Source: a virus (taxonomy: Duplodnaviria > Heunggongvirae > Uroviricota > Caudoviricetes). Taken from it: a stretch of DNA of 27,458 nucleotides. The DNA lies in IMG/VR virus record IMGVR_UViG_2703718852_000003, positions 1-27,458 of that record; one strand, 5' to 3'. The position numbers were made by a program, and so were the translations under genes. Of the stretch, positions 6,492 to 17,201 are shown piece by piece (positions within the stretch are counted from its first letter, which is position 1; each line of letters opens with the position of its first letter). The notes beneath the pieces were generated by a model. It was given only the letters and a program-made list of their open reading frames with translations. It was not told where the DNA came from and ran no database searches.

Positions 6492-7184
6492 TTAATTGTG
6501 TCGCTTAAGGGTTTGTGACTGGCTGATTAAGACCTTTCCAAAGACCATAAACCGGTGTTCATTTTCGCTGGTAATTCCCCATTCACGGTAAATCTGGTTA
6601 TCAGAAATCACCAGTAGTTTGTCAGGTATCATTTGCAGTCGTTTGACATAAATTTTATCATCAAAACCAAATACATAGATACCATCTCCATCAAACTGAT
6701 TGATACTGACATCAACGAAGATGAGATCTCCTGGCTCAATGGTTGGACACATACTGTCCCCACGAACGTTGATAACTTTAATGTGATTGGCTGGCCGTCC
6801 GCCAAACATCGATACAGCATTATCAGTTCTGTATTCAATGGCATGAATCACATCAATGACATCACCGCCCTGGATAAGGCCATTTCCCGCACTGGCACTG
6901 ACATCCAGCATTTCAATACGGAATACATCCTTCACCTGCGCAACATCCTCACTAATACTGTTTTTACATACAGTATTACTTTTGACGTCTGAGGTAAAGA
7001 GATCAGCAATATCAACACCTAAGCTCCTGGCAATATTACTCAGGGCTTGTTCAGTGAATTGTTTCTGCTTACCTGTTTCCAGGCGTGAGATATTCGCCGC
7101 ATCCACTCCTATTGCTTCAGCGAGATCGGCGATTTTCATGTTCTTCGCCTGGCGAAGTTGTCTGACTCGGTTTCCTATGTTCAT
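6492..7184 (-). CDS. cI: CI-like prophage repressor (XRE-type helix-turn-helix plus S24 LexA-like self-cleaving peptidase domain)
   Basis: N-terminal helix-turn-helix (VRQLRQAKNMKIADLAEAIGVDAANISRLETGK); C-terminal S24 catalytic dyad GDSM ... KRL; divergent from a cro-like gene. Confidence 0.9.
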   Translation of the reverse strand: MNIGNRVRQLRQAKNMKIADLAEAIGVDAANISRLETGKQKQFTEQALSNIARSLGVDIADLFTSDVKSNTVCKNSISEDVAQVKDVFRIEMLDVSASAGNGLIQGGDVIDVIHAIEYRTDNAVSMFGGRPANHIKVINVRGDSMCPTIEPGDLIFVDVSINQFDGDGIYVFGFDDKIYVKRLQMIPDKLLVISDNQIYREWGITSENEHRFMVFGKVLISQSQTLKRHN

Positions 7185-7281: not shown

Positions 7282-7542
7282 ATGCAATCACCATTACGGA
7301 ATGTGCGTAAGGCGCACGGATTTACTTTGCAGCATGTTGCTGCTGGCGTTCAGGTCAATCCAGCGACGCTGAGTCGTATTGAAAGACTGGAACAAATTCC
7401 ATCTATCGATCTTGCAGAACGTCTGGCCAATTTTTTTAAGGGTGAAATCAGCGAAATGCAGATTCTTTATCCGGCACGTTTTCAATCTAGCCAAAACCAG
7501 AATGGGTTTAAACCACAGGAACAGGAGGTAAGCCGTGGGTAA
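7282..7542 (+). CDS. cro: Cro-like helix-turn-helix regulator
   Basis: 86 aa, helix-turn-helix (FTLQHVAAGVQVNPATLSRIERLEQIPSIDLAERLA); first gene of the rightward operon, divergent from cI. Confidence 0.7.
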   Translation: MQSPLRNVRKAHGFTLQHVAAGVQVNPATLSRIERLEQIPSIDLAERLANFFKGEISEMQILYPARFQSSQNQNGFKPQEQEVSRG

Positions 7543-8092
7543 TCATCACTGGAAAGTGGAAAAACAGCCTGAGTGGTACGTGAAAGCTGTCAGAAAAACT
7601 ATCGCGGCGTTGCCGGGGGGTTACGCTGAAGCTGCTGAGTGGCTGGATGTAACAGAGAACGCATTATTTAACCGCCTTCGTGCCGATGGCGATCAGATTT
7701 TCCCGCTGGGATGGGCAATGATTTTACAACGTGCTGGTGGCACTCACTTCATTGCCGACGCTGTGGCGCAGTCTGCAAATGGCGTCTTTGTGTCTCTTCC
7801 TGACGTCGAGGATGTGGACAATGCCGATATTAACCAGCGTTTACTGGAAGTCATTGAACAGATCGGCAGTTATTCAAAACAGATTCGTTCGGCAATCGAA
7901 GACGGTGTAGTGGAACCGCATGAGAAGACAGCAATTAACGACGAGCTGTACCTCTCAATTTCGAAGCTGCAGGAGCATGCAGCACTTGTCTACAAAATTT
8001 TTTGCGTTTCAGAAAGTAATGACGCCCGCGAGTGTGCAGCTCCGGGCGTCGTGGCGTCGATTGCTTCTGGTTGTGGAGAAACTAACGCATGA
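7535..8092 (+). CDS. YmfL-like putative regulatory protein (cII-position gene, as in e14-type prophages)
   Basis: 185 aa, GTG start with AGGAGG ribosome-binding site; resemblance to YmfL is from memory. Confidence 0.55.
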
Positions 8093-8436: not shown

Positions 8437-9378
8437 ATGAGCACTAAATTAACCGGCTATGTATGGGATGGTTGCGCTGCGTCAGGCATGAAATTATCCA
8501 GCGTGGCAATTATGGCCCGCCTGGCTGATTTCAGTAATGACGAAGGTGTGTGCTGGCCATCAATTGAAACTATTGCCCGTCAGATTGGCGCGGGGATGAG
8601 TACCGTCAGAACGGCTATCGCACGGCTGGAAGCAGAAGGCTGGTTAACGCGTAAGGCGCGTCGCCAGGGTAACCGCAATGCGTCGAATGTTTATCAGCTT
8701 AACGTTGCGAAGCTTCAGGCAGCGGCATTTTCTCAACTGTCAGATTCTGACCCGTCAAAATCTGACGCATCAAAATCTGACACGTCAAAATTTGATGCGT
8801 CGAAATCTGGCAAAAAAGCGGGTTTTCACCCGTCAGAATCTGGCGGGGATCCGTCAGTAAAATCAAAACATGATCCGTCAGATAAAAAACCTTCTCGTCC
8901 GGACGCTTCGCAACCGGACACGCAGACGGCTGAACAGGATTTTTTAACTCGCCATCCTGATGCGGTTGTATTCAGCCCTAAAAAGCGCCAGTGGGGAACG
9001 CAGGATGATTTGACCTGCGCACAGTGGCTCTGGAAAAAAATCATTGCCCTGTACGAGCAGGCCGCCGAATGTGACGGCGAGGTGGTTCGTCCCAAAGAAC
9101 CGAACTGGACAGCCTGGGCAAACGAAATTCGCCTGATGTGTGTGCAGGATGGTCGTACTCACAAACAAATCTGCGAGATGTACAGCCGCGTCAGCCGCGA
9201 TCCGTTCTGGTGCCGTAACGTGCTCAGCCCGTCGAAGCTGCGGGAAAAATGGGATGAGCTTTCCCTGCGCTTATCGCCGTCCATCAGCACATACACAGAA
9301 AAACGCGAAGACCCGTATTTCAAATCCAGTTACGACAGCGTGGACTACAGCCAGATCCCGGCAGGATTCAGGGGGTGA
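8437..9378 (+). CDS. Replication initiator protein (O-like, N-terminal winged-helix DNA-binding domain) with an internal origin-like iteron array
   Basis: N-terminus (WPSIETIARQIGAGMSTVRTAIARLEAEGWL) typical of phage replication initiators; GAGG ribosome-binding site; Ser/Asp/Lys repeat linker encoded by DNA iterons, as for lambda ori inside O. Confidence 0.7.
   Translation: MSTKLTGYVWDGCAASGMKLSSVAIMARLADFSNDEGVCWPSIETIARQIGAGMSTVRTAIARLEAEGWLTRKARRQGNRNASNVYQLNVAKLQAAAFSQLSDSDPSKSDASKSDTSKFDASKSGKKAGFHPSESGGDPSVKSKHDPSDKKPSRPDASQPDTQTAEQDFLTRHPDAVVFSPKKRQWGTQDDLTCAQWLWKKIIALYEQAAECDGEVVRPKEPNWTAWANEIRLMCVQDGRTHKQICEMYSRVSRDPFWCRNVLSPSKLREKWDELSLRLSPSISTYTEKREDPYFKSSYDSVDYSQIPAGFRG
8739..8860. 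repeat. Iteron-like direct repeats with 15-bp period (CGTCAAAATCTGAC and variants, four tandem copies plus degenerate copies), preceded by palindrome GTCAGATTCTGAC; putative origin
   Basis: Tandem copies at 8752, 8767, 8782, 8797 and further copies at about 8830 and 8852, read directly from the sequence. Confidence 0.5.
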
Positions 9379-9380
9379 GC

Positions 9381-9710
9381 ATGAGTCTTTTGAATGAAGT
9401 TCAGAAATTCATTGAAGCCCATCCGGGCTGTACTTCCGGAGACATTGCGGATGCTTTTGCAGGTTACTCACGGCAGCGCGTTCTGCAGTCAGCAAGCAAG
9501 TTACGTCAGAGTGGGCGTGTGGCTCACCGTTGTGAAGGGGATACACGCAGACATTTCCCGCGCCTGACTGAGAGAGCGCAGGAGCCGGAACCACAACCAG
9601 TTCGTGAAACCAGACCTGTGCGCAATTTCTATGTCGGCACTAACGATTCCCGGGTGATTTTGTGCCTGACTCGCCAGGCGGAAAAACTGGTCAGGGAGAT
9701 GGCGGCATGA
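9381..9710 (+). CDS. Hypothetical protein
   Basis: ATG with GGGGG ribosome-binding site, overlapping the stop of the initiator gene; stop overlaps the next start (ATGA). Confidence 0.5.
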   Translation: MSLLNEVQKFIEAHPGCTSGDIADAFAGYSRQRVLQSASKLRQSGRVAHRCEGDTRRHFPRLTERAQEPEPQPVRETRPVRNFYVGTNDSRVILCLTRQAEKLVREMAA

Positions 9711-10033
9711 CGACGTTAACTCAATGCCAGCAGCAGGTGCTGGATATGCTGATTTCTTACCAGAAAGAACGTGGCTTCCCGCCAACCAATCAGGAGGTGG
9801 CAACCATGCTGGGATACCGTTCAGTGAATGCAGCGGTGGAGCATCTTCGCGCACTGGAGAAAAAAGGCGTCATCACGATAAAGCGTGGCGTGGCCCGGGG
9901 GATCACGCTTCATACCGCAGTGAAGGACGACGACAGCGAAGCGGTCGGTATCATCCGCGCACTGCTTGCCGGTGAGGAGAACGCTAGGTTGCGTGCAGCC
10001 CACTGGTTACATGAGAGGGGCCTGAAAGTATGA
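9707..10033 (+). CDS. LexA N-terminal DNA-binding-domain homolog lacking the S24 peptidase domain
   Basis: LTQCQQQVLDMLISYQKERGFPPTNQEVATMLGYRSVNAAVEHLRALEKKGVITIKRGVARGITL aligns along its length with the LexA winged-helix domain; protein ends after about 108 aa. Confidence 0.65.
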   Translation: MTTLTQCQQQVLDMLISYQKERGFPPTNQEVATMLGYRSVNAAVEHLRALEKKGVITIKRGVARGITLHTAVKDDDSEAVGIIRALLAGEENARLRAAHWLHERGLKV

Positions 10034-10419
10034 AGTTGATCCTTCCTTTCCCGCCCAGTGTGAACACGTACTGGCGACACCCCAACAAAGGGGCATTTGC
10101 TGGTAAGAGCCTGATAAGCGAGGCGGGGCGAAAATTTCAGAGCGCGGCGTGCGCAGCAATAGTTGAGCAGTTACGTCGTCTGCCGAAACCAACGTCGGCA
10201 CCTGCTTCAGTGGAGATCGTGTTGTTTCCTCCGGATAACCGGATCCGCGATCTGGACAACTATAACAAGGCTCTGTTTGACGCCCTGACCCACGCGGGTG
10301 TGTGGGAAGACGACAGACAGGTGAAAAGAATGCTGGTGGAGTGGGGACCGGTTATCCCGAAAGGGAAGGTCGAGATCACTATCAGTAAGTATGAGAAACC
10401 GGCGGGTGCAGCCGCCTGA
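10030..10419 (+). CDS. rusA: RusA-family Holliday junction resolvase
   Basis: 129 aa; conserved acidic motif IRDLDNYNKALFDALTHAGVWEDD typical of RusA. Confidence 0.85.
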   Translation: MKLILPFPPSVNTYWRHPNKGAFAGKSLISEAGRKFQSAACAAIVEQLRRLPKPTSAPASVEIVLFPPDNRIRDLDNYNKALFDALTHAGVWEDDRQVKRMLVEWGPVIPKGKVEITISKYEKPAGAAA

Positions 10420-10438: not shown

Positions 10439-11248
10439 ATGAATAATCTGATGGTCATTGATGGTATTGAAGTTCATCGTGATGCTTATGGGCGTTACAG
10501 CCTGAACGATCTGCATCGCGCAGCAGTAGCATCTGGTGCAAATGCCAGAACCAAGGAGCCAGGAAAGTTTCTTTCCAGCCAACAAACTGTTGAGCTTGTT
10601 CATGAATTGACCAACACCCAGAATTTGGGTGTTGACCCGGTGAGTGTGATTCATGGGGGAAATGAACGGGGAACGTATGTCTGCAAGGAACTGGTGTATG
10701 CCTATGCAATGTGGATCAGCCCGTCATTCCATCTGAAGGTGATCCGTACTTTCGACATGGTAACCAGCGCACCGGAAAAATTATCCGGACAGGCTGCTGA
10801 CAAGATGCAGGCTGGTGTGATTCTGCTGGACTTTATGCGCCGGGAATTAAACCTGTCTAACTCTTCAGTGCTTGGTGCCTGTCAGAAACTCCAGGAGGCT
10901 GTTGGCTTACCGAATCTGGCACCGCGCTATGCCATTGATGCTCCTGCTGACGCGCCTGATGGCTCAAGCCGCCCCACGCTGTCGCTGAGTGCACTGCTGA
11001 AACAGTATGGTATCCGCCTGACGGCTAATCAGGCATATCACCAGATGGCGAAGCTGGGGATCGTTGAACAACGCGAACGATACAGCCGTACCGCGATTAA
11101 CAACATCAAAAAATTCTGGTCGCTGACAGCGAAAGGCTGCATGTTCGGCAAGAACATCACCAGTCCCGCAAATCCGCGCGAGACGCAGCCGCATTTCTTC
11201 GAATCCCGATTCCCTGAGCTGTTAAAGCTGCTCGATACCGTTCATTGA
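10439..11248 (+). CDS. KilA-N domain protein (anti-repressor-like)
   Basis: N-terminal KilA-N pattern (IDGIEVHRDAYGRYSLNDLHRAAVASG); strong AGGAG ribosome-binding site. Confidence 0.7.
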   Translation: MNNLMVIDGIEVHRDAYGRYSLNDLHRAAVASGANARTKEPGKFLSSQQTVELVHELTNTQNLGVDPVSVIHGGNERGTYVCKELVYAYAMWISPSFHLKVIRTFDMVTSAPEKLSGQAADKMQAGVILLDFMRRELNLSNSSVLGACQKLQEAVGLPNLAPRYAIDAPADAPDGSSRPTLSLSALLKQYGIRLTANQAYHQMAKLGIVEQRERYSRTAINNIKKFWSLTAKGCMFGKNITSPANPRETQPHFFESRFPELLKLLDTVH

Positions 11249-11249
11249 G

Positions 11250-12245
11250 GTGACCGTGAGAGCACTACTGACCCCTGAAATTGCCCCGCGTATGGGGATC
11301 GTATTGTTCAGGCCCGGTTCAGAGCTGATGCCCCTGTTTATGCAGGGGCGTGTCCTGCTGGAGCCTGAGCCGGAGCATTATTCATCTTTCGCCAGTGGTG
11401 CCGTTCCCGCGGCGTCACAACCGCTGGCGGATGATCCTGCCGTTTGGGCCGTGTTCCGCAATGAGGCAGTGATCCGTCGTGCTGGTGGCGTGGAATGTCT
11501 TGAAAGCTGGTTACTTCGTGAAAAAGGCTGCCAGTGGCCTCATTCCGACTGGCACAGCGAGAACATGACCACAATGCGACACGCTCCGGGTGCAATCCGT
11601 CTGTGCTGGCACTGCGATAACCAGCTGCGCGATCAGTTCACGGAACGGCTGGAATCAATGGCAACGGATAACTGTGCCCGCTGGGTGTTGTCTGTTGTGC
11701 GTCGGGATCTCGGTTTTGATGACAGTCACGTTGTGACAATGCCGGAACTGTGCTGGTGGCTGATTCGTAATGACCTGGCGGATGCCTTACCGGAAAGTGC
11801 AGCCCGTAAGGCACTGAGATTACCGAAGCCTGTTGTGCCGTCTGTCACCCGGGAAAGTGACCTTGTGCCTTCGGTTCCTGCTACCAGCATCATCCAGGAT
11901 AAGGCGAAAAAGGTGCTGGCGCTGAAAGTGGATCCGGAGTCGCCGGAGTCTTTTATGTTACGCCCAAAACGTCGCCGCTGGGTTAATGAAAAGTACACGC
12001 GCTGGGTTAAGACACAGCCGTGTGCATGTTGTGGAAAGCCTGCTGATGATCCCCACCACCTGATAGGTCACGGTCAGGGTGGAATGGGTACAAAAGCGCA
12101 TGACCTCTTTGTGTTGCCTTTGTGCAGAAAGCATCACGACGAGCTGCATGCAGATACCGTGGCATTTGAAGAGATGTATGGCTCCCAGCTGGAGCTGATA
12201 TTTCGTTTTATCGATCGTGCGCTGGCAATTGGCGTGCTGGCCTGA
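11250..12245 (+). CDS. DUF968-like protein with C-terminal Cys/His (HNH-like) motif
   Basis: C-terminal PCACCGKPADDPHHLIGHGQGGMGTKAHDLFVLPLCRKHHDELH; exact start uncertain (GTG at 11250 or 11256). Confidence 0.55.
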   Translation: MTVRALLTPEIAPRMGIVLFRPGSELMPLFMQGRVLLEPEPEHYSSFASGAVPAASQPLADDPAVWAVFRNEAVIRRAGGVECLESWLLREKGCQWPHSDWHSENMTTMRHAPGAIRLCWHCDNQLRDQFTERLESMATDNCARWVLSVVRRDLGFDDSHVVTMPELCWWLIRNDLADALPESAARKALRLPKPVVPSVTRESDLVPSVPATSIIQDKAKKVLALKVDPESPESFMLRPKRRRWVNEKYTRWVKTQPCACCGKPADDPHHLIGHGQGGMGTKAHDLFVLPLCRKHHDELHADTVAFEEMYGSQLELIFRFIDRALAIGVLA

Positions 12246-12262
12246 TTTTGTGGAGAAAGTTG

Positions 12263-12616
12263 ATGCGTGATATGTATGAAGTTTTGGACCGCTGGGGGGC
12301 ATGGGCTGCTGCAGAAAACAGTGGTGTGGACTGGCAACCGGTAGCTGCTGGCTTCAAGCGGCTTTTACCTCATGGCAGAAAGTCCCGGATTCAGTGCGAT
12401 GATGATGAGGGCATCATAATAGACGGTTGTGTCGCTAGGTTGCGTAAATACAAGCCGGCAGAGTATGAGCTGATAATTGCTCACTTTGTTGTTGGCATTT
12501 CGCTCCGTACAATTGCAAAGAAGCGGAAATGTTCAGACGGAACAGTTCGAAAAGATATGCAAACAGCTATGGGGTTTATTGATGGATGCTTGTCATTTTT
12601 TTATTTAATACAATGA
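12263..12616 (+). CDS. Q: Late antiterminator Q (phage 21/82-type)
   Basis: MRDMYEVLDRWGAWAAAENSGVDWQPVAAGFKRLLP ... matches the remembered Q-type N-terminus; start at the ATG with GGAG ribosome-binding site; lies upstream of the lysis cassette. Confidence 0.75.
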   Translation: MRDMYEVLDRWGAWAAAENSGVDWQPVAAGFKRLLPHGRKSRIQCDDDEGIIIDGCVARLRKYKPAEYELIIAHFVVGISLRTIAKKRKCSDGTVRKDMQTAMGFIDGCLSFFYLIQ

Positions 12617-12695: not shown

Positions 12696-13736
12696 GTGAA
12701 CATTCAAGCAGTAGACATTTTTTGTGGCGCAGGGGGCTTAACTTTTGGGCTAAAAAAAGCCGGGATTGAAGTTTCTCATGGCATTGATATTGATGAGTCC
12801 TGCCGTTTCGCTATTGAGAGCAATAATCCCTTAACGAAGTTCATTAACCAGTCAGTTACTGAACTGCAATCCAGCGATGTGTCTGCTATGTTCAAGGAAG
12901 GAAATATTAGATTACTTGCAGGCTGTGCCCCTTGCCAACCGTTTTCCAAGTATCGTAATCCAAATAGCAGAAAAGATGATACAAAGTGGCGTCTTTTATC
13001 TGAGTTTCAGAGGATTGTAAGTGATGTCATGCCAGAGCTTGTGACTATGGAAAATGTTCCTCAACTTAGAAATCATAAGGTTTTTGAAGAGTTTGTTAGT
13101 GTATTAAAGACTCTTGGGTATCATCTGTGGTACGACGTTGTAAAATGTTCCGAGTATGGCTTGCCTCAAAATAGACGTAGATTAATTCTAATTGGGTCCA
13201 TATTGGGGCCAATCAGCCTTGATCAAAAAAAAGTAAGCCGTAAAGTTACAGTAAAGGATGCTATTGGTCAGTTGCCAAAAATAGGTGCAGGGGAGAAACT
13301 CGAAAGTGATCCATTGCATCGTTCGCCTAAATTAAGGGATATTAACCTTAAACGAATCTTGCACTCTTTACCAGGTGGTACGTGGGATGATTGGCCTGAA
13401 GAAATTAGAGCGGATTGCCATAAAAAGCATTCAGGTGCTACCTATAAAAGTGTTTATGGACGGATGGTTTGGGACGATACTAGTCCTACAATAACTACCC
13501 AATGTTATGGATATGGTAATGGGCGATTCGGACATCCTGAGCAAAATAGAGCAATAACTTTGCGTGAAGCTGCTATTTTACAATCTTTTCCTATGGATTA
13601 TAAATTTATTGGAAAAAATACGCCTTTTTCATTCCAAAAGTTAGGAACGATGATTGGTAATGCTGTTCCCCCTATAATTGGCCAAGTAATAGGGAGAACG
13701 TTTGTTAGGCATGTTGAGGGGATAAATATCCGTTAG
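12696..13736 (+). CDS. DNA (cytosine-5)-methyltransferase
   Basis: Motif I FCGAGG, motif IV catalytic PCQPFS, motif VI ENV, motif VIII QNRRR; GTG start with GGAGA ribosome-binding site; AT-rich. Confidence 0.9.
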   Translation: MNIQAVDIFCGAGGLTFGLKKAGIEVSHGIDIDESCRFAIESNNPLTKFINQSVTELQSSDVSAMFKEGNIRLLAGCAPCQPFSKYRNPNSRKDDTKWRLLSEFQRIVSDVMPELVTMENVPQLRNHKVFEEFVSVLKTLGYHLWYDVVKCSEYGLPQNRRRLILIGSILGPISLDQKKVSRKVTVKDAIGQLPKIGAGEKLESDPLHRSPKLRDINLKRILHSLPGGTWDDWPEEIRADCHKKHSGATYKSVYGRMVWDDTSPTITTQCYGYGNGRFGHPEQNRAITLREAAILQSFPMDYKFIGKNTPFSFQKLGTMIGNAVPPIIGQVIGRTFVRHVEGINIR

Positions 13737-14394
13737 AGATAATATAATCTTCAGTTGAGTTTATTAATAAACGAAGATATAGATCAACTCTCTCTGCTCT
13801 AGACTTAACTTCTTCTAAGGGGTCAATTTGCCCCTTTTTAGAGAAGCTAGTACTTCCATGCGCGAGTTCGTTTCTGATATCCTTAAGCAAGTCTAAGTCA
13901 ATACCATTTCTACATTCAGGTGAGTTTGCGATAGTTATTCCGTAAGCCTGCGTTATTTTGTGTAATACAGGCTTGCAAACATTACCATTGAATTCTTTAC
14001 GAATATTCAATGAGGCTGAAATTATTCTTTTGGAAATGTCAGTGCCTATCTTTTTATAAAGGGATTGCCCTGTTTCATTATCTGAAACAATTCTATGTAA
14101 TATATTTACTTGAAGCTTCTCCCTGAGTGATGCGTAATTCACCTCATTATCTTGTAAATGATCATAAATTGACTCGATGCAACCTCTGGCAGTATTTTCA
14201 ACTTGATTATATAGCATCATATGAACGGATGATTTTAAAATATTTACCCTTAGGATATTAGATTCTATTTCATCTTGATGCGCTTGCGGATCTAACTGCT
14301 GAGTATGAATCTCTATAGATGATGCAAGAGAAAGCAGTTCCATAATGTCTCTTGCTCTTTCTTCATATTCATCTCGTAAATCAATTAGACTCAT
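13705..14394 (-). CDS. HEPN-like protein (R-x4-HG motif), second gene of the DUF262 operon
   Basis: C-terminal IRNELAHG fits the HEPN R-x4-6-H motif; start 3 nt after the DUF262 stop; 3' end overlaps the convergent methyltransferase by 32 bp. Family assignment by eye only. Confidence 0.5.
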   Translation of the reverse strand: MSLIDLRDEYEERARDIMELLSLASSIEIHTQQLDPQAHQDEIESNILRVNILKSSVHMMLYNQVENTARGCIESIYDHLQDNEVNYASLREKLQVNILHRIVSDNETGQSLYKKIGTDISKRIISASLNIRKEFNGNVCKPVLHKITQAYGITIANSPECRNGIDLDLLKDIRNELAHGSTSFSKKGQIDPLEEVKSRAERVDLYLRLLINSTEDYIISNGYLSPQHA

Positions 14395-14396
14395 TT

Positions 14397-15557
14397 TTAA
14401 ATCCCTAACAACTTATTTTTAACGTAAAAGATTCTGTTTTTTAGCTGGCTGGTATTGTTTGCACTATCAGCAGTAACAAGTGTTTCAAATTCCTCTTCAA
14501 ATAGCCATTCACCTACAGGTACGGCTGGACTCTGGAGTTGTGGGTTAGTTTTTAATGCAAGTGCAGTTCCCACGGCAATGGCTTCGTATCTGGCTCGTGG
14601 GGTGGTTTTACTTGTTGCGGTCTTTTTAAAGCCAATAGGGAAATGGGTAGCAACAAAAGCAAGCATCATTTCAAAATCATGTTTAAAATTATCAACATCT
14701 TGTTGAGTAGTCACAGCTGCTGCTTGTTCATTTAAATAATTATCAATAAAGGGACGGACAAATCCCTTATAGTTTTCTAAATCATTTAAATATGCAAAAA
14801 ATCTCAAAACTAACTCACGATGATCGCCATTCGACCGTTTCCGGTCTGATAATGGAGCTAGTTGGGAAAAAAGTGAGTTTGTTGAGCATGGGGTCACAAC
14901 ATCTTTATAGAACATTGAGGTAGCAGCATCTGAGCCATGCCTCACTTCCATCGCTTCTAATCTTTTAACACCTGAGTTGATCCTTTCAAATAAATCTCTT
15001 CTATGTTGTTCCTCAACATCACCTTTCAACTCAATAAATCTTAGTGAAGCTCTTAAAAATCTTCTTTGGCGGCTAGCTAAAAGATCTGAAAATTTGAAAC
15101 CTTCTAAACTTTTAAGCTCTTTCAAATCCTTTAACTCAAATTGATCGTTCCAAAAATAATAAATAGAGCGTATCCGTTGTGAACCATCAATGATTTCTAC
15201 CCTACCATCTAATTCAGGGTCTTCATTAAATACATCAGCAATGTAAAGGTAAGGTATTGGAAAGTCTAATAGAATACTTTCTATAAAGCGAGAGGCTGTT
15301 TTTGTATCCCACTTGTAATCACGTTGATAATCTGGAATAAAAAGCTCGTTTTTGTCATTTTCAATATTATCACCATACTTTTGAATAATGACTTCAACGG
15401 TCCACTCACGTACATTGTATCCAATGTTTCTCTGAGCGAGTCTGATTTCATTGTCAGCGGAAGCGGTTAAAGCTGCAATTTCAGCCTTTTTTCTGTTCTT
15501 AGCGTGTTCATCTTGTATCTGAGCAAGCTCTTCTTTGAGTTCTTTGAGTGTAGTCAT
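14397..15557 (-). CDS. DUF262 (GmrS / ParB-like NTPase) domain protein
   Basis: Hallmark motifs FIPDYQRDYKWD and EIIDGSQR (DGQQR box); AAGGAA ribosome-binding site; AT-rich. Confidence 0.8.
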   Translation of the reverse strand: MTTLKELKEELAQIQDEHAKNRKKAEIAALTASADNEIRLAQRNIGYNVREWTVEVIIQKYGDNIENDKNELFIPDYQRDYKWDTKTASRFIESILLDFPIPYLYIADVFNEDPELDGRVEIIDGSQRIRSIYYFWNDQFELKDLKELKSLEGFKFSDLLASRQRRFLRASLRFIELKGDVEEQHRRDLFERINSGVKRLEAMEVRHGSDAATSMFYKDVVTPCSTNSLFSQLAPLSDRKRSNGDHRELVLRFFAYLNDLENYKGFVRPFIDNYLNEQAAAVTTQQDVDNFKHDFEMMLAFVATHFPIGFKKTATSKTTPRARYEAIAVGTALALKTNPQLQSPAVPVGEWLFEEEFETLVTADSANNTSQLKNRIFYVKNKLLGI

Positions 15558-15682: not shown

Positions 15683-15804
15683 GTACCTGTAAACCTGGTG
15701 CAGTACGGTAAACACGCTGGTGGTCGTGAATACTGACTTTTTATCTTGCTGGCTTTTTAGACAAGAGTTATTGGTATGTCATGTTAACCAGAAGGAAAAA
15801 AGAC

Positions 15805-15999
15805 ATGCTAAAACAGCAAGATATGACAGAAACGGCGAAAGTTGTTTTTAATGAATTAAGCATCGAACCGGCAACAGTCGGGGAGATTGCACAAAACACA
15901 TATCTTTCACGCGAACGCTGTCAGTTAATACTGACCCAGTTGGTTATGGCGGGGCTGGCAGATTACCAGTTCGGCTGTTACAGACGCCTTCAGCAATGA
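15805..15999 (+). CDS. Small hypothetical protein, possible winged-helix regulator
   Basis: ATG with GAAGGA ribosome-binding site; helix-turn-helix-like segment ATVGEIAQNTYLSRERCQLILTQL; divergent from the DUF262 operon. Confidence 0.4.
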   Translation: MLKQQDMTETAKVVFNELSIEPATVGEIAQNTYLSRERCQLILTQLVMAGLADYQFGCYRRLQQ

Positions 16000-16148
16000 A
16001 GGACTTTTAATTTGTGAAAATGGGCGGCTGGTGGGTGTTGGTAGCACCTGCCAGCCATTCGCTCATGCTTACTGGTCACAAGCGAACCACGGCCCACTGC
16101 TTTAGCGCAAAAGCAGAGTGAGCCTACCAGAGTTACGCTTACTGATCC

Positions 16149-17201
16149 ATGAAAAATACTGTAAAAATAAACAGTGTTGATTTAATCAACGCTGATTGCC
16201 TGCATTTTATTCAGTCCCTGCCTGATGATTCCATTGACCTGATTGTTACCGATCCGCCTTACTTCAAGGTGAAACCCAACGGTTGGGACAATCAGTGGAA
16301 AGGGGACGAAGATTACCTTAAGTGGCTGGACCACTGTCTGGCCCAGTTCTGGCGGGTGTTGAAACCTGCCGGAAGCCTTTACCTGTTCTGTGGGCATCGC
16401 CTGGCATCTGATATTGAGATCATGATGCGTGAACGTTTCAACGTGCTTAACCATATCATCTGGGCGAAGCCGTCCGGACGTTGGAATGGGTGTAATAAAG
16501 AAAGTCTGCGCGCATATTTTCCTGCCACAGAGCGCGTTCTGTTTGCTGAACATTACCAGGGGCCATATCGCGGCAAAAGTGACGGCTATGCGGCAAAAGA
16601 AAGGGAACTCAAACAGCACATAATGGCACCGCTGATATCGTATTTCAGGGATGCTCGTGCCGAACTGGGTATAACGGCAAAACAAATTGCCGAAGCCACA
16701 GGTAAGAAAAATATGGTTTCCCACTGGTTTGGTGCCAGTCAGTGGCAGTTGCCGAATGAGGCTGACTATCGGAAGTTACAGGCACTGTTTTCCCGTATAG
16801 CGGCAGAGAAGTTTCAGGAACAACAACTGGAACAACCACACCACCAGCTGGTGGCATCTTATGATTCACTGAATCGCAAATATTCTGAATTGCTGGATGA
16901 GTTTAAATCTCTCCGGCGCTATTTCTCCGTATCAGTCTCCGTGCCTTATACCGATGTCTGGATGCATAAACCCGTTCAGTTCTACCCGGGTAAACATCCG
17001 TGTGAGAAACCGGCGGATATGCTCAGGCAAATAATCAATGCCAGTAGTCGACCTGGTGATCTGGTTGCTGATTTTTTTATGGGATCCGGTTCCACAATAA
17101 AAGCAGCAATGGCGCTGGGGCGTCGGGCCTTAGGTGTTGAGCTTGAGTCAGAGCGGTTTAACCAGACAGTGAAAGAGATAAACGAGCTGGTGGGGAAATA
17201 A
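16149..17201 (+). CDS. DNA amino-methyltransferase (N6-adenine or N4-cytosine, beta class)
   Basis: Motif IV DPPY near the N-terminus and motif I FFMGSGST near the C-terminus. Confidence 0.8.

What the first reader, a model, noticed from the sequence alone, without database searches (positions are those of the whole stretch)
9707..10033. LexA DNA-binding domain without the self-cleaving peptidase domain
The 108-aa product aligns by eye along its length with the LexA N-terminal winged helix, including the NAA-x-EHL recognition-helix region, but terminates before any S24 peptidase domain. Such a protein could occupy LexA-type boxes while being immune to RecA-stimulated cleavage, a possible way to modulate the SOS response or prophage induction.
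Basis: partly seen in the sequence, partly recalled or inferred. Interest (0 to 1): 0.55.

Follow-up and report, generated by a model that had tools for sequence, protein, structure and literature searches.

The report
Prophage LexA-like DNA binder lacking protease
This is a real and very common prophage gene that encodes only the DNA-binding half of the SOS repressor LexA plus a small helical tail, so RecA cannot switch it off; databases already list the family, but nobody has tested its function or DNA target.

Summary
ORF 9707-10033(+) encodes 108 aa whose residues 1-69 are a full LexA winged helix (Pfam PF01726 E=2.9e-19; model vs LexA-DNA complex 3jso rmsd 0.9 A). There is no S24 peptidase domain.

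The rest is a family-specific two-helix hairpin, not a truncation scar. It is conserved down to 40% identity, and dN/dS is about 0.1.

The gene lies in the early-right operon of a lambdoid prophage and always sits just upstream of rusA. It occurs in 2233 of 5426 complete E. coli genomes and in SfV, SfII, cdtI, mEp460 and Stx2a/Stx2c phages. It is annotated "LexA family transcriptional regulator" (PHROG 362). I found no functional study.

- Four of LexA's five base-contact residues are kept.
- The prophage carries two near-consensus SOS boxes.
- Some relatives sit behind a LexA-repressed promoter.
- Against it, the R28/E44 pair, which covaries perfectly across LexA homologues, is lost here (N28, V44). 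The same SOS boxes also occur in phages that lack the gene.

Best reading: a RecA-proof, dimeric, LexA-derived regulator made after induction. Whether it binds canonical SOS boxes or its own diverged operator, as GIL01 gp6 does, is open.

The parts
9707..10033 (+). LexA-like gene (108 aa, stop included). Product = LexA winged-helix domain plus C-terminal helical hairpin, no S24 peptidase.
9707..9913 (+). Residues 1-69: LexA_DNA_bind winged helix-turn-helix (helices 6-22, 28-35, 40-52; beta hairpin 56-68).
   Evidence: Pfam PF01726 1-65/65; AF2 secondary structure; 3jso rmsd 0.9 A
9824..9862 (+). Recognition helix, residues 40-52 (VNAAVEHLRALEK). S39, N41, A42 and E45 are kept; LexA E44 is V here; LexA R28 is N28 (codon 9788-9790).
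9926..10015 (+). Residues 74-103: family-specific amphipathic helix-turn-helix hairpin (helices 74-88 and 93-103; consensus EAVxxIRALLAxExxARxRAxxxLxxRG). Inferred dimerisation module that replaces LexA's C-terminal domain.
   Evidence: no counterpart in LexA structures
10030..10419 (+). rusA (Holliday-junction resolvase). Its ATG overlaps the LexA-like stop (ATGA). RusA follows the LexA-like gene in every complete locus examined except SfIV, where it is a pseudogene; type-2 loci have a 67-aa ORF in between.
9375..9710 (+). Upstream 111-aa ORF (phrog_23071 / PerC-like activator family). Its stop overlaps the LexA-like ATG (ATGA), which indicates one operon. In most relatives a Dam methylase occupies this slot.
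8437..9378 (+). O-like replication initiator, the upstream member of the same rightward early operon.
12248..12616 (+). Q-like antiterminator, at the end of the operon that contains the LexA-like gene.
6956..6975 (.). Near-consensus SOS box TACTGTTTTTACATACAGTA inside the cI (S24 repressor) ORF, 209 nt from its start. Certainly a host-LexA-type site; only a candidate target of the LexA-like protein.
16157..16176 (.). Near-consensus SOS box TACTGTAAAAATAAACAGTG over codons 3-9 of the N6_N4 DNA methyltransferase (16149-17201), between Q and the lysis genes. Candidate target; also present in phages that lack the LexA-like gene.

Best explanation
The gene encodes a LexA-derived operator-binding protein that RecA* cannot inactivate. 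Residues 1-69 are a LexA winged helix. Residues 74-103 form an amphipathic two-helix hairpin that most likely replaces LexA's C-terminal domain as the dimerisation module (inferred).

The gene is a delayed-early member of the prophage's rightward operon (O-like, small ORF, LexA-like, RusA, KilA-N, DUF968, Q). Its start and stop codons overlap those of its neighbours. It should therefore be made only after derepression or on infection, which is when host LexA is being cleaved (inferred from position).

I propose that it binds SOS-box-type palindromes as a dimer, with half-sites related to CTGT. It would act as a cleavage-proof stand-in for LexA, re-closing LexA-type operators on the phage and probably on the host and co-resident prophages while RecA* is still active.

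Shown here: domain identity, absence of the protease, conservation and purifying selection, synteny, presence and lineage-level enrichment of SOS boxes, and SOS-controlled promoters in front of some relatives.

Inferred: dimerisation, the DNA target, repression and timing. The exact operator is uncertain because the R28/E44 pair of canonical LexA is replaced.
For: Domain and structure:
- Full-length LexA_DNA_bind match, and an rmsd of 0.9 A to DNA-bound LexA.
- S39, N41, A42 and E45, four of the five LexA base-contact residues listed in PMC3091678, are retained.
- There is no S24 domain, and the Ala-Gly site is not conserved.
- The C-terminal hairpin is conserved at 40-53% identity and modelled with pLDDT 88-90. 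The whole-length fold resembles, weakly, other winged-helix regulators with helical dimerisers.

Selection and spread:
- dN/dS is about 0.10.
- The gene is present in 2233 of 5426 complete E. coli genomes.

SOS boxes:
- This prophage has two near-consensus boxes, scoring 24.8 and 21.9 bits. The next best site scores 9.5, and the 95th-percentile shuffle maximum is 15.5.
- ACTGT-N8-ACAGT is the only palindrome that stands out in 19 diverse carriers (15 observed, 0.15 expected).
- Around window-type RusA (76 of 80 loci carry the gene) there are 4.6 strong boxes per 100 kb. Around DLP12-type RusA (0 of 80 carry it) there are 0.09 per 100 kb.

SOS control of relatives:
- In four divergent relatives (Kp4865-4, L013, L017, L111) a canonical LexA-repressed promoter (-35, then a -10 abutting or overlapping the box) heads the operon that contains the LexA-like gene. 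In one of them the SOS modulator DinI is in the same operon.
Against: - No binding data exist.
- E44 is V and R28 is N here. Among 113 cluster representatives, R28 pairs with E44 in 74 (and with D44 in 1), R28 with another residue in 3, non-R28 with E44 in 0, and non-R28 with non-E44 in 35. Every short-family member lacks both residues. The recognition chemistry has therefore changed.
- The two box types of this window belong to the cI and methylase modules. They occur with conserved sequence in phiNP and PSTRCR_117lys, which have no LexA-like gene. They are explained by host LexA alone.
- The box enrichment rests on roughly two box lineages, so it is not phylogenetically independent.
- Carrier 689R6 (43 kb) and several carrier loci have no strong box.
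- Neither box of this window overlaps a recognisable sigma-70 promoter.
- The only characterised truncated phage LexA homologue, GIL01 gp6, binds a different site and activates transcription.
Confidence: 0.4

Rival explanations
1. A phage-specific regulator of the GIL01 gp6 type. The LexA-derived domain has evolved its own operator, distinct from the SOS box. It activates or represses phage promoters (for example nin/Q or late-region genes) rather than substituting for LexA.
For: - gp6 is a truncated LexA homologue that binds GaCACAnnTGTGaC, not the host LexA box, and activates the late promoter P3 (PMC6182141).
- The whole short family has lost the covarying R28/E44 pair. True LexAs closest to it keep E44 in 11 of 13 and R28 in 12 of 13.
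- The SOS boxes are independent of the gene's presence.
- Some carriers have no SOS box.
Against: - No alternative conserved palindrome was found in 19 diverse carriers; the only standout is the SOS box.
- S39, N41, A42 and E45 are kept, so at least part of the CTGT reading head is intact.
- These phages already have Q for late control.
- gp6 lacks the C-terminal hairpin and comes from a tectivirus of Bacillus.
Confidence: 0.3
2. A DNA-binding accessory of the recombination/replication module. It would work with RusA (and perhaps DUF968), for example by targeting or modulating junction resolution or replication restart, and would not be a transcription factor.
For: - The gene lies immediately upstream of rusA, usually with overlapping stop and start codons, in every complete locus examined across 40-100% identity and several genera. 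The exceptions are SfIV, where rusA is a pseudogene, and type-2 loci, which have a 67-aa ORF in between.
- Neighbours are Dam/DNA methylases and replication genes.
- There are weak profile hits to replication-initiator winged helices (phrog_678 E=0.0087; DnaD_N E=0.16).
Against: - RusA is common without this gene: 80 of 80 DLP12-type loci lack it.
- The fold and recognition helix are those of a sequence-specific repressor.
- Synteny in lambdoid nin regions often reflects module order rather than physical partnership.
Confidence: 0.12
3. A decoy or pseudo-substrate. The LexA-like linker ('LLAGE' aligned with LexA 'VAAGE') would be cut in trans, or would occupy the LexA/RecA* cleavage machinery and so slow LexA or CI cleavage.
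For: HMMER extends the alignment through LexA residues 70-86, so that A88-G89 aligns with the Ala84-Gly85 scissile bond.
Against: - The Ala-Gly is replaced in relatives (LLANEE, VERES, LTRKE, IDDQP, LACSV, IAEEP, MADTP).
- The segment is modelled as the end of a helix plus a turn, not as LexA's cleavage loop.
- From my own knowledge of 8trg: RecA* engages LexA's C-terminal domain, which is absent here.
Confidence: 0.03

Closest known systems
Host SOS repressor LexA (E. coli; TIGR00498, PDB 1jhh/3jso)
   Same: - Homologous N-terminal winged helix, about 50% identical over residues 1-69, with rmsd 0.9 A.
- Same recognition-helix motif S-x-N-A-A-x-E-H-L and the wing residues R64-G65-I66.
   Different: - No S24 peptidase domain, no Ser119/Lys156 dyad and no conserved Ala-Gly site.
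- Dimerisation must come from a different element, the C-terminal helical hairpin.
- The R28/E44 pair is replaced by N28/V44.
- Encoded by a prophage early operon rather than an autoregulated chromosomal gene.
GIL01 gp6 (Bacillus thuringiensis tectivirus), a truncated LexA homologue that activates the late promoter P3 (PMC6182141)
   Same: Phage-encoded, LexA DNA-binding domain only, no cleavage domain, made from an early operon after SOS induction.
   Different: - gp6 is essentially the bare winged helix. This protein adds a conserved helical hairpin of about 35 residues.
- Different phage type (lambdoid siphovirus/myovirus prophages of Enterobacterales) and different host LexA motif.
- gp6's site and its activator role are demonstrated; nothing is demonstrated here.
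- Direct sequence comparison with gp6 was not done because its sequence was not at hand.
PHROG 362 / Pfam PF01726-only proteins, 'LexA family transcriptional regulator' (SfV orf42, SfII, cdtI, mEp460, Stx-phage pham 237)
   Same: This is the family the ORF belongs to (phrog_362 E=1.6e-59 over the full length; 96-99% identity to SfV, SfII, cdtI and Stx2a/Stx2c phage genes).
   Different: Nothing differs. These entries are annotation labels only, and I found no experimental work on them.
Non-cleavable LexA(Ind-) mutants and the LexA(1-84) N-terminal fragment (my own knowledge of E. coli genetics)
   Same: DNA-binding LexA moieties that RecA* cannot remove. Ind- mutants hold the SOS regulon shut, which is the functional analogy behind the best explanation.
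   Different: - Ind- mutants keep the C-terminal dimerisation domain and wild-type contacts.
- The natural 1-84 fragment binds weakly and is degraded by ClpXP.
- The phage protein has its own C-terminal module and altered residues 28 and 44.

Membership tests
LexA repressor proper (TIGR00498 / COG1974) | N-terminal LexA winged-helix DNA-binding domain | tested here: met
   PF01726 E=2.9e-19, full length; 3jso rmsd 0.9 A, 50% identity
LexA repressor proper (TIGR00498 / COG1974) | C-terminal S24 peptidase/dimerisation domain with the Ser-Lys dyad | tested here: not met
   The protein ends at residue 108. TIGR00498 matches profile positions 1-91/203 only, 70.5 bits against a cut-off of 110.95. 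No Peptidase_S24 hit.
LexA repressor proper (TIGR00498 / COG1974) | Ala-Gly self-cleavage site in the linker | tested here: not met
   A88-G89 aligns with A84-G85 in this allele, but it is not conserved in the family and lies in a helix-turn of the model.
LexA repressor proper (TIGR00498 / COG1974) | Base-contact residues S39, N41, A42, E44, E45 (PMC3091678) and the covarying R28 | tested here: inconclusive
   S39, N41, A42 and E45 are kept; E44 is V and R28 is N. R28 and E44 covary perfectly among 113 representatives, and both are lost in all short-family members.
LexA repressor proper (TIGR00498 / COG1974) | Binds CTGT-N8-ACAG SOS boxes and represses the SOS regulon | not testable with these tools
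   Only circumstantial: two strong boxes in the prophage, lineage-level enrichment and counter-examples.
Pfam PF01726-only phage proteins / PHROG 362 | Full-length profile match and a short single-domain architecture | tested here: met
   phrog_362 E=1.6e-59, 1-108 against 1-106/106. Homologues are 104-108 aa with PF01726 only.
Pfam PF01726-only phage proteins / PHROG 362 | Conserved position in lambdoid prophages (replication/Dam, then LexA-like, then RusA, DUF968 and Q) | tested here: met
gp6-type truncated phage LexA homologues (GIL01) | Phage-encoded LexA DNA-binding domain without a cleavage domain | tested here: met
   definition from PMC6182141
gp6-type truncated phage LexA homologues (GIL01) | Own operator distinct from the host LexA box; activates the late promoter | not testable with these tools
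   No alternative conserved palindrome was found. Loss of R28/E44 is compatible with a changed site.
gp6-type truncated phage LexA homologues (GIL01) | Direct sequence orthology to gp6 | not tested
The architecture differs, because this protein has an extra C-terminal hairpin.

The most novel reading that the evidence does not exclude
Prophages in about 40% of E. coli genomes, including Stx2a and Stx2c phages of O157:H7, make a cleavage-proof LexA surrogate once they are induced. It would re-close SOS operators while RecA* is still active. That would shut down host SOS functions and silence the LexA-controlled antirepressors, dinI genes, methylases and colicins of rival elements. In effect it would be a phage-timed off-switch for the SOS response and a weapon between prophages, with consequences for mutagenesis, co-induction and Shiga-toxin output.
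Probability: 0.3. Interest if true: 0.7.

Novelty: new member of a known kind. Interest (0 to 1): 0.42.

Why it matters
The SOS response controls prophage induction, Shiga-toxin release, mutagenesis and antibiotic tolerance. A LexA-type DNA binder that RecA cannot destroy, encoded in about 41% of complete E. coli genomes, could change how long and how strongly SOS genes stay on after damage. It could also decide which of several resident prophages gets induced.

If the protein instead has its own operator, it is an unrecognised regulator of the nin/late region of a very common lambdoid lineage. Either outcome can be tested with one purified protein and a few reporters.

As a sequence observation the finding is ordinary, because the family is already annotated. 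Its value lies in the untested function.

Tried and rejected
1. Cleavage-site decoy idea. LexA's VAAGE aligns with LLAGE here. Rejected, because the Ala-Gly is not conserved and lies in a helix-turn.

2. Strict co-dependence of the SOS boxes and the gene. Rejected. phiNP and PSTRCR_117lys keep the methylase-start box (phiNP also keeps an in-repressor box) without any LexA-like ORF. Carrier 689R6 has no box. Thirty-two of 80 close loci have none within 10 kb either side.

3. Search for an alternative operator. Palindrome enrichment for eight half-site/spacer geometries in 19 carriers gave only the SOS box plus GC-rich terminator stems. The GATA-N8-TATC signal turned out to be conserved DUF968 coding sequence.

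4. Promoters next to the two boxes. No sigma-70-like site was found.

5. Fused-dimer AF2 prediction to test dimerisation.

6. Literature for the roles of R28 and E44, and the LexA-DNA structure paper. Not held or not found.

7. Literature for any functional study of this family. None found.

8. Rfam and tRNA scans of the window. Nothing.

9. Genome-contig scan with the 14-sequence alignment failed for lack of conserved stretches. It was repeated with 6 sequences.

Caveat: the SOS-box weight matrix was built from 24 E. coli SOS boxes recalled from memory. Scores are therefore approximate, although both window sites are perfect TACTGT-N8-ACAGT(A/G) matches.

Full report
**1. The observation**

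The ORF exists as described. It runs from ATG 9707 to TGA 10033 and encodes 108 aa, preceded by AGGGAGA. A longer GTG-initiated form (9662) is possible, but the dominant homologue clusters are 108 aa.

- Pfam LexA_DNA_bind matches end to end (E=2.9e-19, 69 bits against a cut-off of 23.7).
- The best solved relatives are E. coli LexA entries (1lea, 1jhh, 3jso; E about 1e-15). The alignment shows RSVNAAVEHLRAL against RSPNAAEEHLKAL.
- An AF2 model (pLDDT 84) superposes on DNA-bound LexA 3jso at 0.9 A over 68 residues with 50% identity.
- No S24 domain is present. The NCBIfam lexA equivalog covers profile positions 1-91 of 203 only and falls below its cut-off (70.5 against 110.95 bits).

**2. Anatomy**

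The model has three parts:
- The LexA winged helix: helices 6-22, 28-35 and 40-52, and a beta hairpin at 56-68.
- A low-confidence linker at 71-75.
- Two further helices at 74-88 and 93-103.

This C-terminal hairpin is not a truncation remnant. Its pattern EAVxxIRALLAxExxARxRAxxxLxxRG persists in relatives that are only 40-53% identical (P0123, P0126, P0127, P0131, P0137, P0160, P0172, P0191, P0230). Its hydrophobic positions follow an amphipathic repeat. I infer that it replaces LexA's C-terminal domain as the dimeriser.

Whole-length Foldseek hits to winged-helix regulators with helical dimerisers (MepR, Rv1846c, MntR/IdeR, YtrA-type GntR) are weak and only topological.

The 'AGE' that HMMER aligns with LexA's Ala84-Gly85 site is not conserved. 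It lies at the helix-turn junction, so I reject a cleavage or decoy role.

Across 55 intact unique alleles, dN/dS is about 0.10.

**3. Context**

The window is a lambdoid prophage with this gene order:
- integrase 386-1609
- S24-type cI 6492-7184(-)
- cII-like 7535-8092
- O-like 8437-9378
- a 111-aa ORF 9375-9710
- the LexA-like gene
- RusA 10030-10419
- KilA-N 10439-11248
- DUF968/HNH 11250-12245
- Q-like 12248-12616
- two DNA methylases flanking a HEPN/DUF262 pair
- holin and lysozyme

The LexA-like start and stop codons overlap its neighbours (ATGA at both ends). It is therefore a delayed-early gene of the rightward operon. I infer that it is expressed only after derepression or on infection.

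**4. Distribution**

- Near-identical genes (96-99%) occur in SfV (orf42), SfII, SfIV, cdtI, mEp460, Stx2a_1447/WGPS2 and 15 Stx2c phages.
- The gene is in 2233 of 5426 complete E. coli genomes, with up to four copies per genome.
- Full-length relatives were found only in Enterobacterales: Shigella/E. coli, Citrobacter, Kosakonia, Buttiauxella, Enterobacter and Klebsiella phages.
- The order [methylase or replication gene], LexA-like, RusA, [KilA-N/Ant], DUF968, Q holds in every complete locus examined. In SfIV rusA is a pseudogene, and type-2 loci have a 67-aa ORF before rusA.
- Databases call it 'LexA family transcriptional regulator', 'LexA DNA binding domain protein' or PHROG 362 'transcriptional repressor'.
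- A Stx-phage survey lists it as pham 237 without comment (PMC8136144).
- I found no functional study.

**5. Does it read SOS boxes? Evidence for**

- Four of the five LexA base-contact residues named in PMC3091678 (S39, N41, A42, E45) are kept.
- The window has two perfect TACTGT-N8-ACAGT(A/G) sites, at 6956-6975 and 16157-16176. They score 24.8 and 21.9 bits with a matrix built from remembered E. coli boxes. The next best site scores 9.5, and the 95th-percentile shuffle maximum is 15.5.
- In 19 diverse carriers, ACTGT-N8-ACAGT is the only enriched palindrome (15 observed against 0.15 expected).
- Eighty loci around window-type RusA (76 with the gene) hold 4.6 strong boxes per 100 kb. Eighty loci around DLP12-type RusA (none with the gene) hold 0.09 per 100 kb. 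Lambda has none above 16.3 bits.
- A second architecture exists in four divergent relatives: Kp4865-4, L013/14, L017 and Enterobacter L111.
  - A canonical LexA-repressed promoter (TTGCAA/TTGCAT -35, then a -10 abutting or overlapping a strong box) heads the operon.
  - The operon runs [DinI in Kp4865-4], small conserved ORF, LexA-like, 67-aa ORF, RusA, DUF968, Q.
  - Where the immunity region was read (L013/14 and L017), the repressor is short and lacks S24.
  - The family is thus repeatedly wired into the SOS circuit.

**6. Does it read SOS boxes? Evidence against**

- The enrichment rests on essentially two box lineages: the methylase start (37 loci) and the site inside cI (24 loci).
- Both lineages belong to their own modules. 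Citrobacter phiNP and Providencia PSTRCR_117lys carry the same methylase with the box conserved over codons 3-9. phiNP also has a box inside its homologous repressor gene and two boxes at its dinI gene. Neither phage has a LexA-like ORF by six-frame hmmsearch. Host LexA suffices to explain these boxes.
- Carrier 689R6 has no strong box in 43 kb, and several carrier loci have none.
- Neither box in the window lies next to a sigma-70-like promoter.
- Most tellingly, positions 28 and 44 covary perfectly among 113 cluster representatives:
  - R28 with E44: 74 (plus 1 with D44)
  - R28 with another residue: 3
  - non-R28 with E44: 0
  - non-R28 with non-E44: 35
- Proteins with an S24 domain keep R28 in 12 of 13 and E44 in 11 of 13. 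Every member of the short family has lost both; here they are N28 and V44.
- A coupled pair at the start of helix 2 and the first turn of the recognition helix looks like a specificity dyad. The operator is therefore probably related to the canonical SOS box but not identical to it. I could not retrieve the structural paper to say which base these residues read.

**7. Precedent**

GIL01 gp6 is a truncated LexA homologue of a Bacillus tectivirus. It binds its own palindrome and activates the late promoter (PMC6182141). It shows that phages do recruit bare LexA DNA-binding domains, and that such domains can drift to a new site and a new sign of regulation.

**8. Verdict**

The best-supported mechanism (confidence about 0.4) is a RecA-proof, dimeric, LexA-derived operator-binding protein. 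It would be made after induction and act at SOS-type palindromes as a stand-in for cleaved LexA.

- The main rival (about 0.3) is a gp6-like regulator with a diverged operator.
- A RusA/recombination accessory role (about 0.12) is kept alive by the invariant synteny.
- A decoy role is unlikely (about 0.03).

The functional reading is plausible but unproven, and it needs the caveat about R28 and E44.

The family is already catalogued and extremely common, so this is a new member of a known kind of protein (truncated phage LexA homologues) rather than a new kind of system. Its interest lies in the untested and easily testable possibility that common E. coli prophages carry an SOS off-switch.

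Noticed in passing
window 6956-6975 (inside cI ORF 6492-7184, minus strand): A near-consensus SOS box lies inside the cI coding sequence, 209 nt from the start codon (codons 70-77, T-V-x-K/I-N/S-S). The box and these codons are kept in cI homologues of L008 (71% identity, same offset) and Citrobacter phiNP (68% identity). The residues in between vary, which suggests selection on the DNA site. No promoter-like site is nearby, and its role (roadblock to cI transcription, or an internal promoter) is unexplained.
   Followed up: partly
window 16060-16176 (start of N6_N4 methyltransferase 16149-17201): An SOS box spans codons 3-9 of a DNA methyltransferase located between Q and the lysis genes. The box, the ATG and about 90 nt of upstream non-coding sequence with a hairpin (GGCCCACTGCTTTAGCGCAAAAGCAGAGTGAGCC) are conserved in five divergent phages (E. 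coli, Klebsiella, Citrobacter, Providencia, L017). There is no Rfam match. The box sits in the path of late (pR') transcription, and the same segment is present in 15 Stx2c phages.
   Followed up: partly
window 13705-15557 (minus strand): A HEPN protein (PF18737, 13705-14394) and a DUF262/GmrSD_N protein (14397-15557) form a likely anti-phage defence pair. The second matches PADLOC NsnA at E=5.9e-45 and PD-T4-2_A at E=4.6e-27. The pair is inserted between two methyltransferase genes in the Q-to-lysis moron region.
   Followed up: partly
L006 10395-11402; L013 7560-8408; L017 7561-8357; L111 9467-10315: A second architecture of the family was seen. A canonical LexA-repressed promoter drives a small conserved ORF (75-97 aa, motif GYAxxRCxD...SFxPL..EIxGT; a possible antirepressor), then the LexA-like gene with an N-terminal extension of about 30 aa, then a 67-aa ORF, RusA, DUF968 and Q. 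Where the immunity region was read (L013/14, L017), the repressor lacks an S24 domain and YdaS/YdaT-like genes are present. In Kp4865-4 a DinI gene heads the operon.
   Followed up: partly
proteins P0133, P0151, P0157, P0161, P0164: Single polypeptides of about 160-220 aa carry two tandem LexA DNA-binding domains and no S24 domain. They are natural 'single-chain dimers', mostly also lacking the R28/E44 pair. Their genomic context was not examined.
   Followed up: no
LexA family alignment positions 28 and 44 (window codons 9788-9790 and 9836-9838): R28 and E44 covary perfectly across 113 LexA-domain cluster representatives: 74 have R+E (plus 1 R+D), 35 have neither, none has E44 without R28, and 3 have R28 without E44. 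This looks like a coupled recognition dyad that separates canonical LexA from the truncated or tandem derivatives.
   Followed up: partly
L002 (SfIV) 32639-32658: In SfIV the rusA gene downstream of the LexA-like gene is a pseudogene. A strong SOS box (TACTGTATTTATGAACAGTA) lies about 100 nt upstream of a different KilA-N gene (32756-33571), which resembles a LexA-controlled antirepressor arrangement.
   Followed up: no
window 15781-15999 (+): A 72-aa ORF (SfV orf47 homologue) lies just upstream of the SOS-box methylase. Its sequence, read by eye, looks like a small winged-helix protein (…ATVGEIAQNTYLSRERCQLILTQLVMAGLA…). It is followed by a terminator-like hairpin at 15987-16002. No profile search was run on it.
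   Followed up: no
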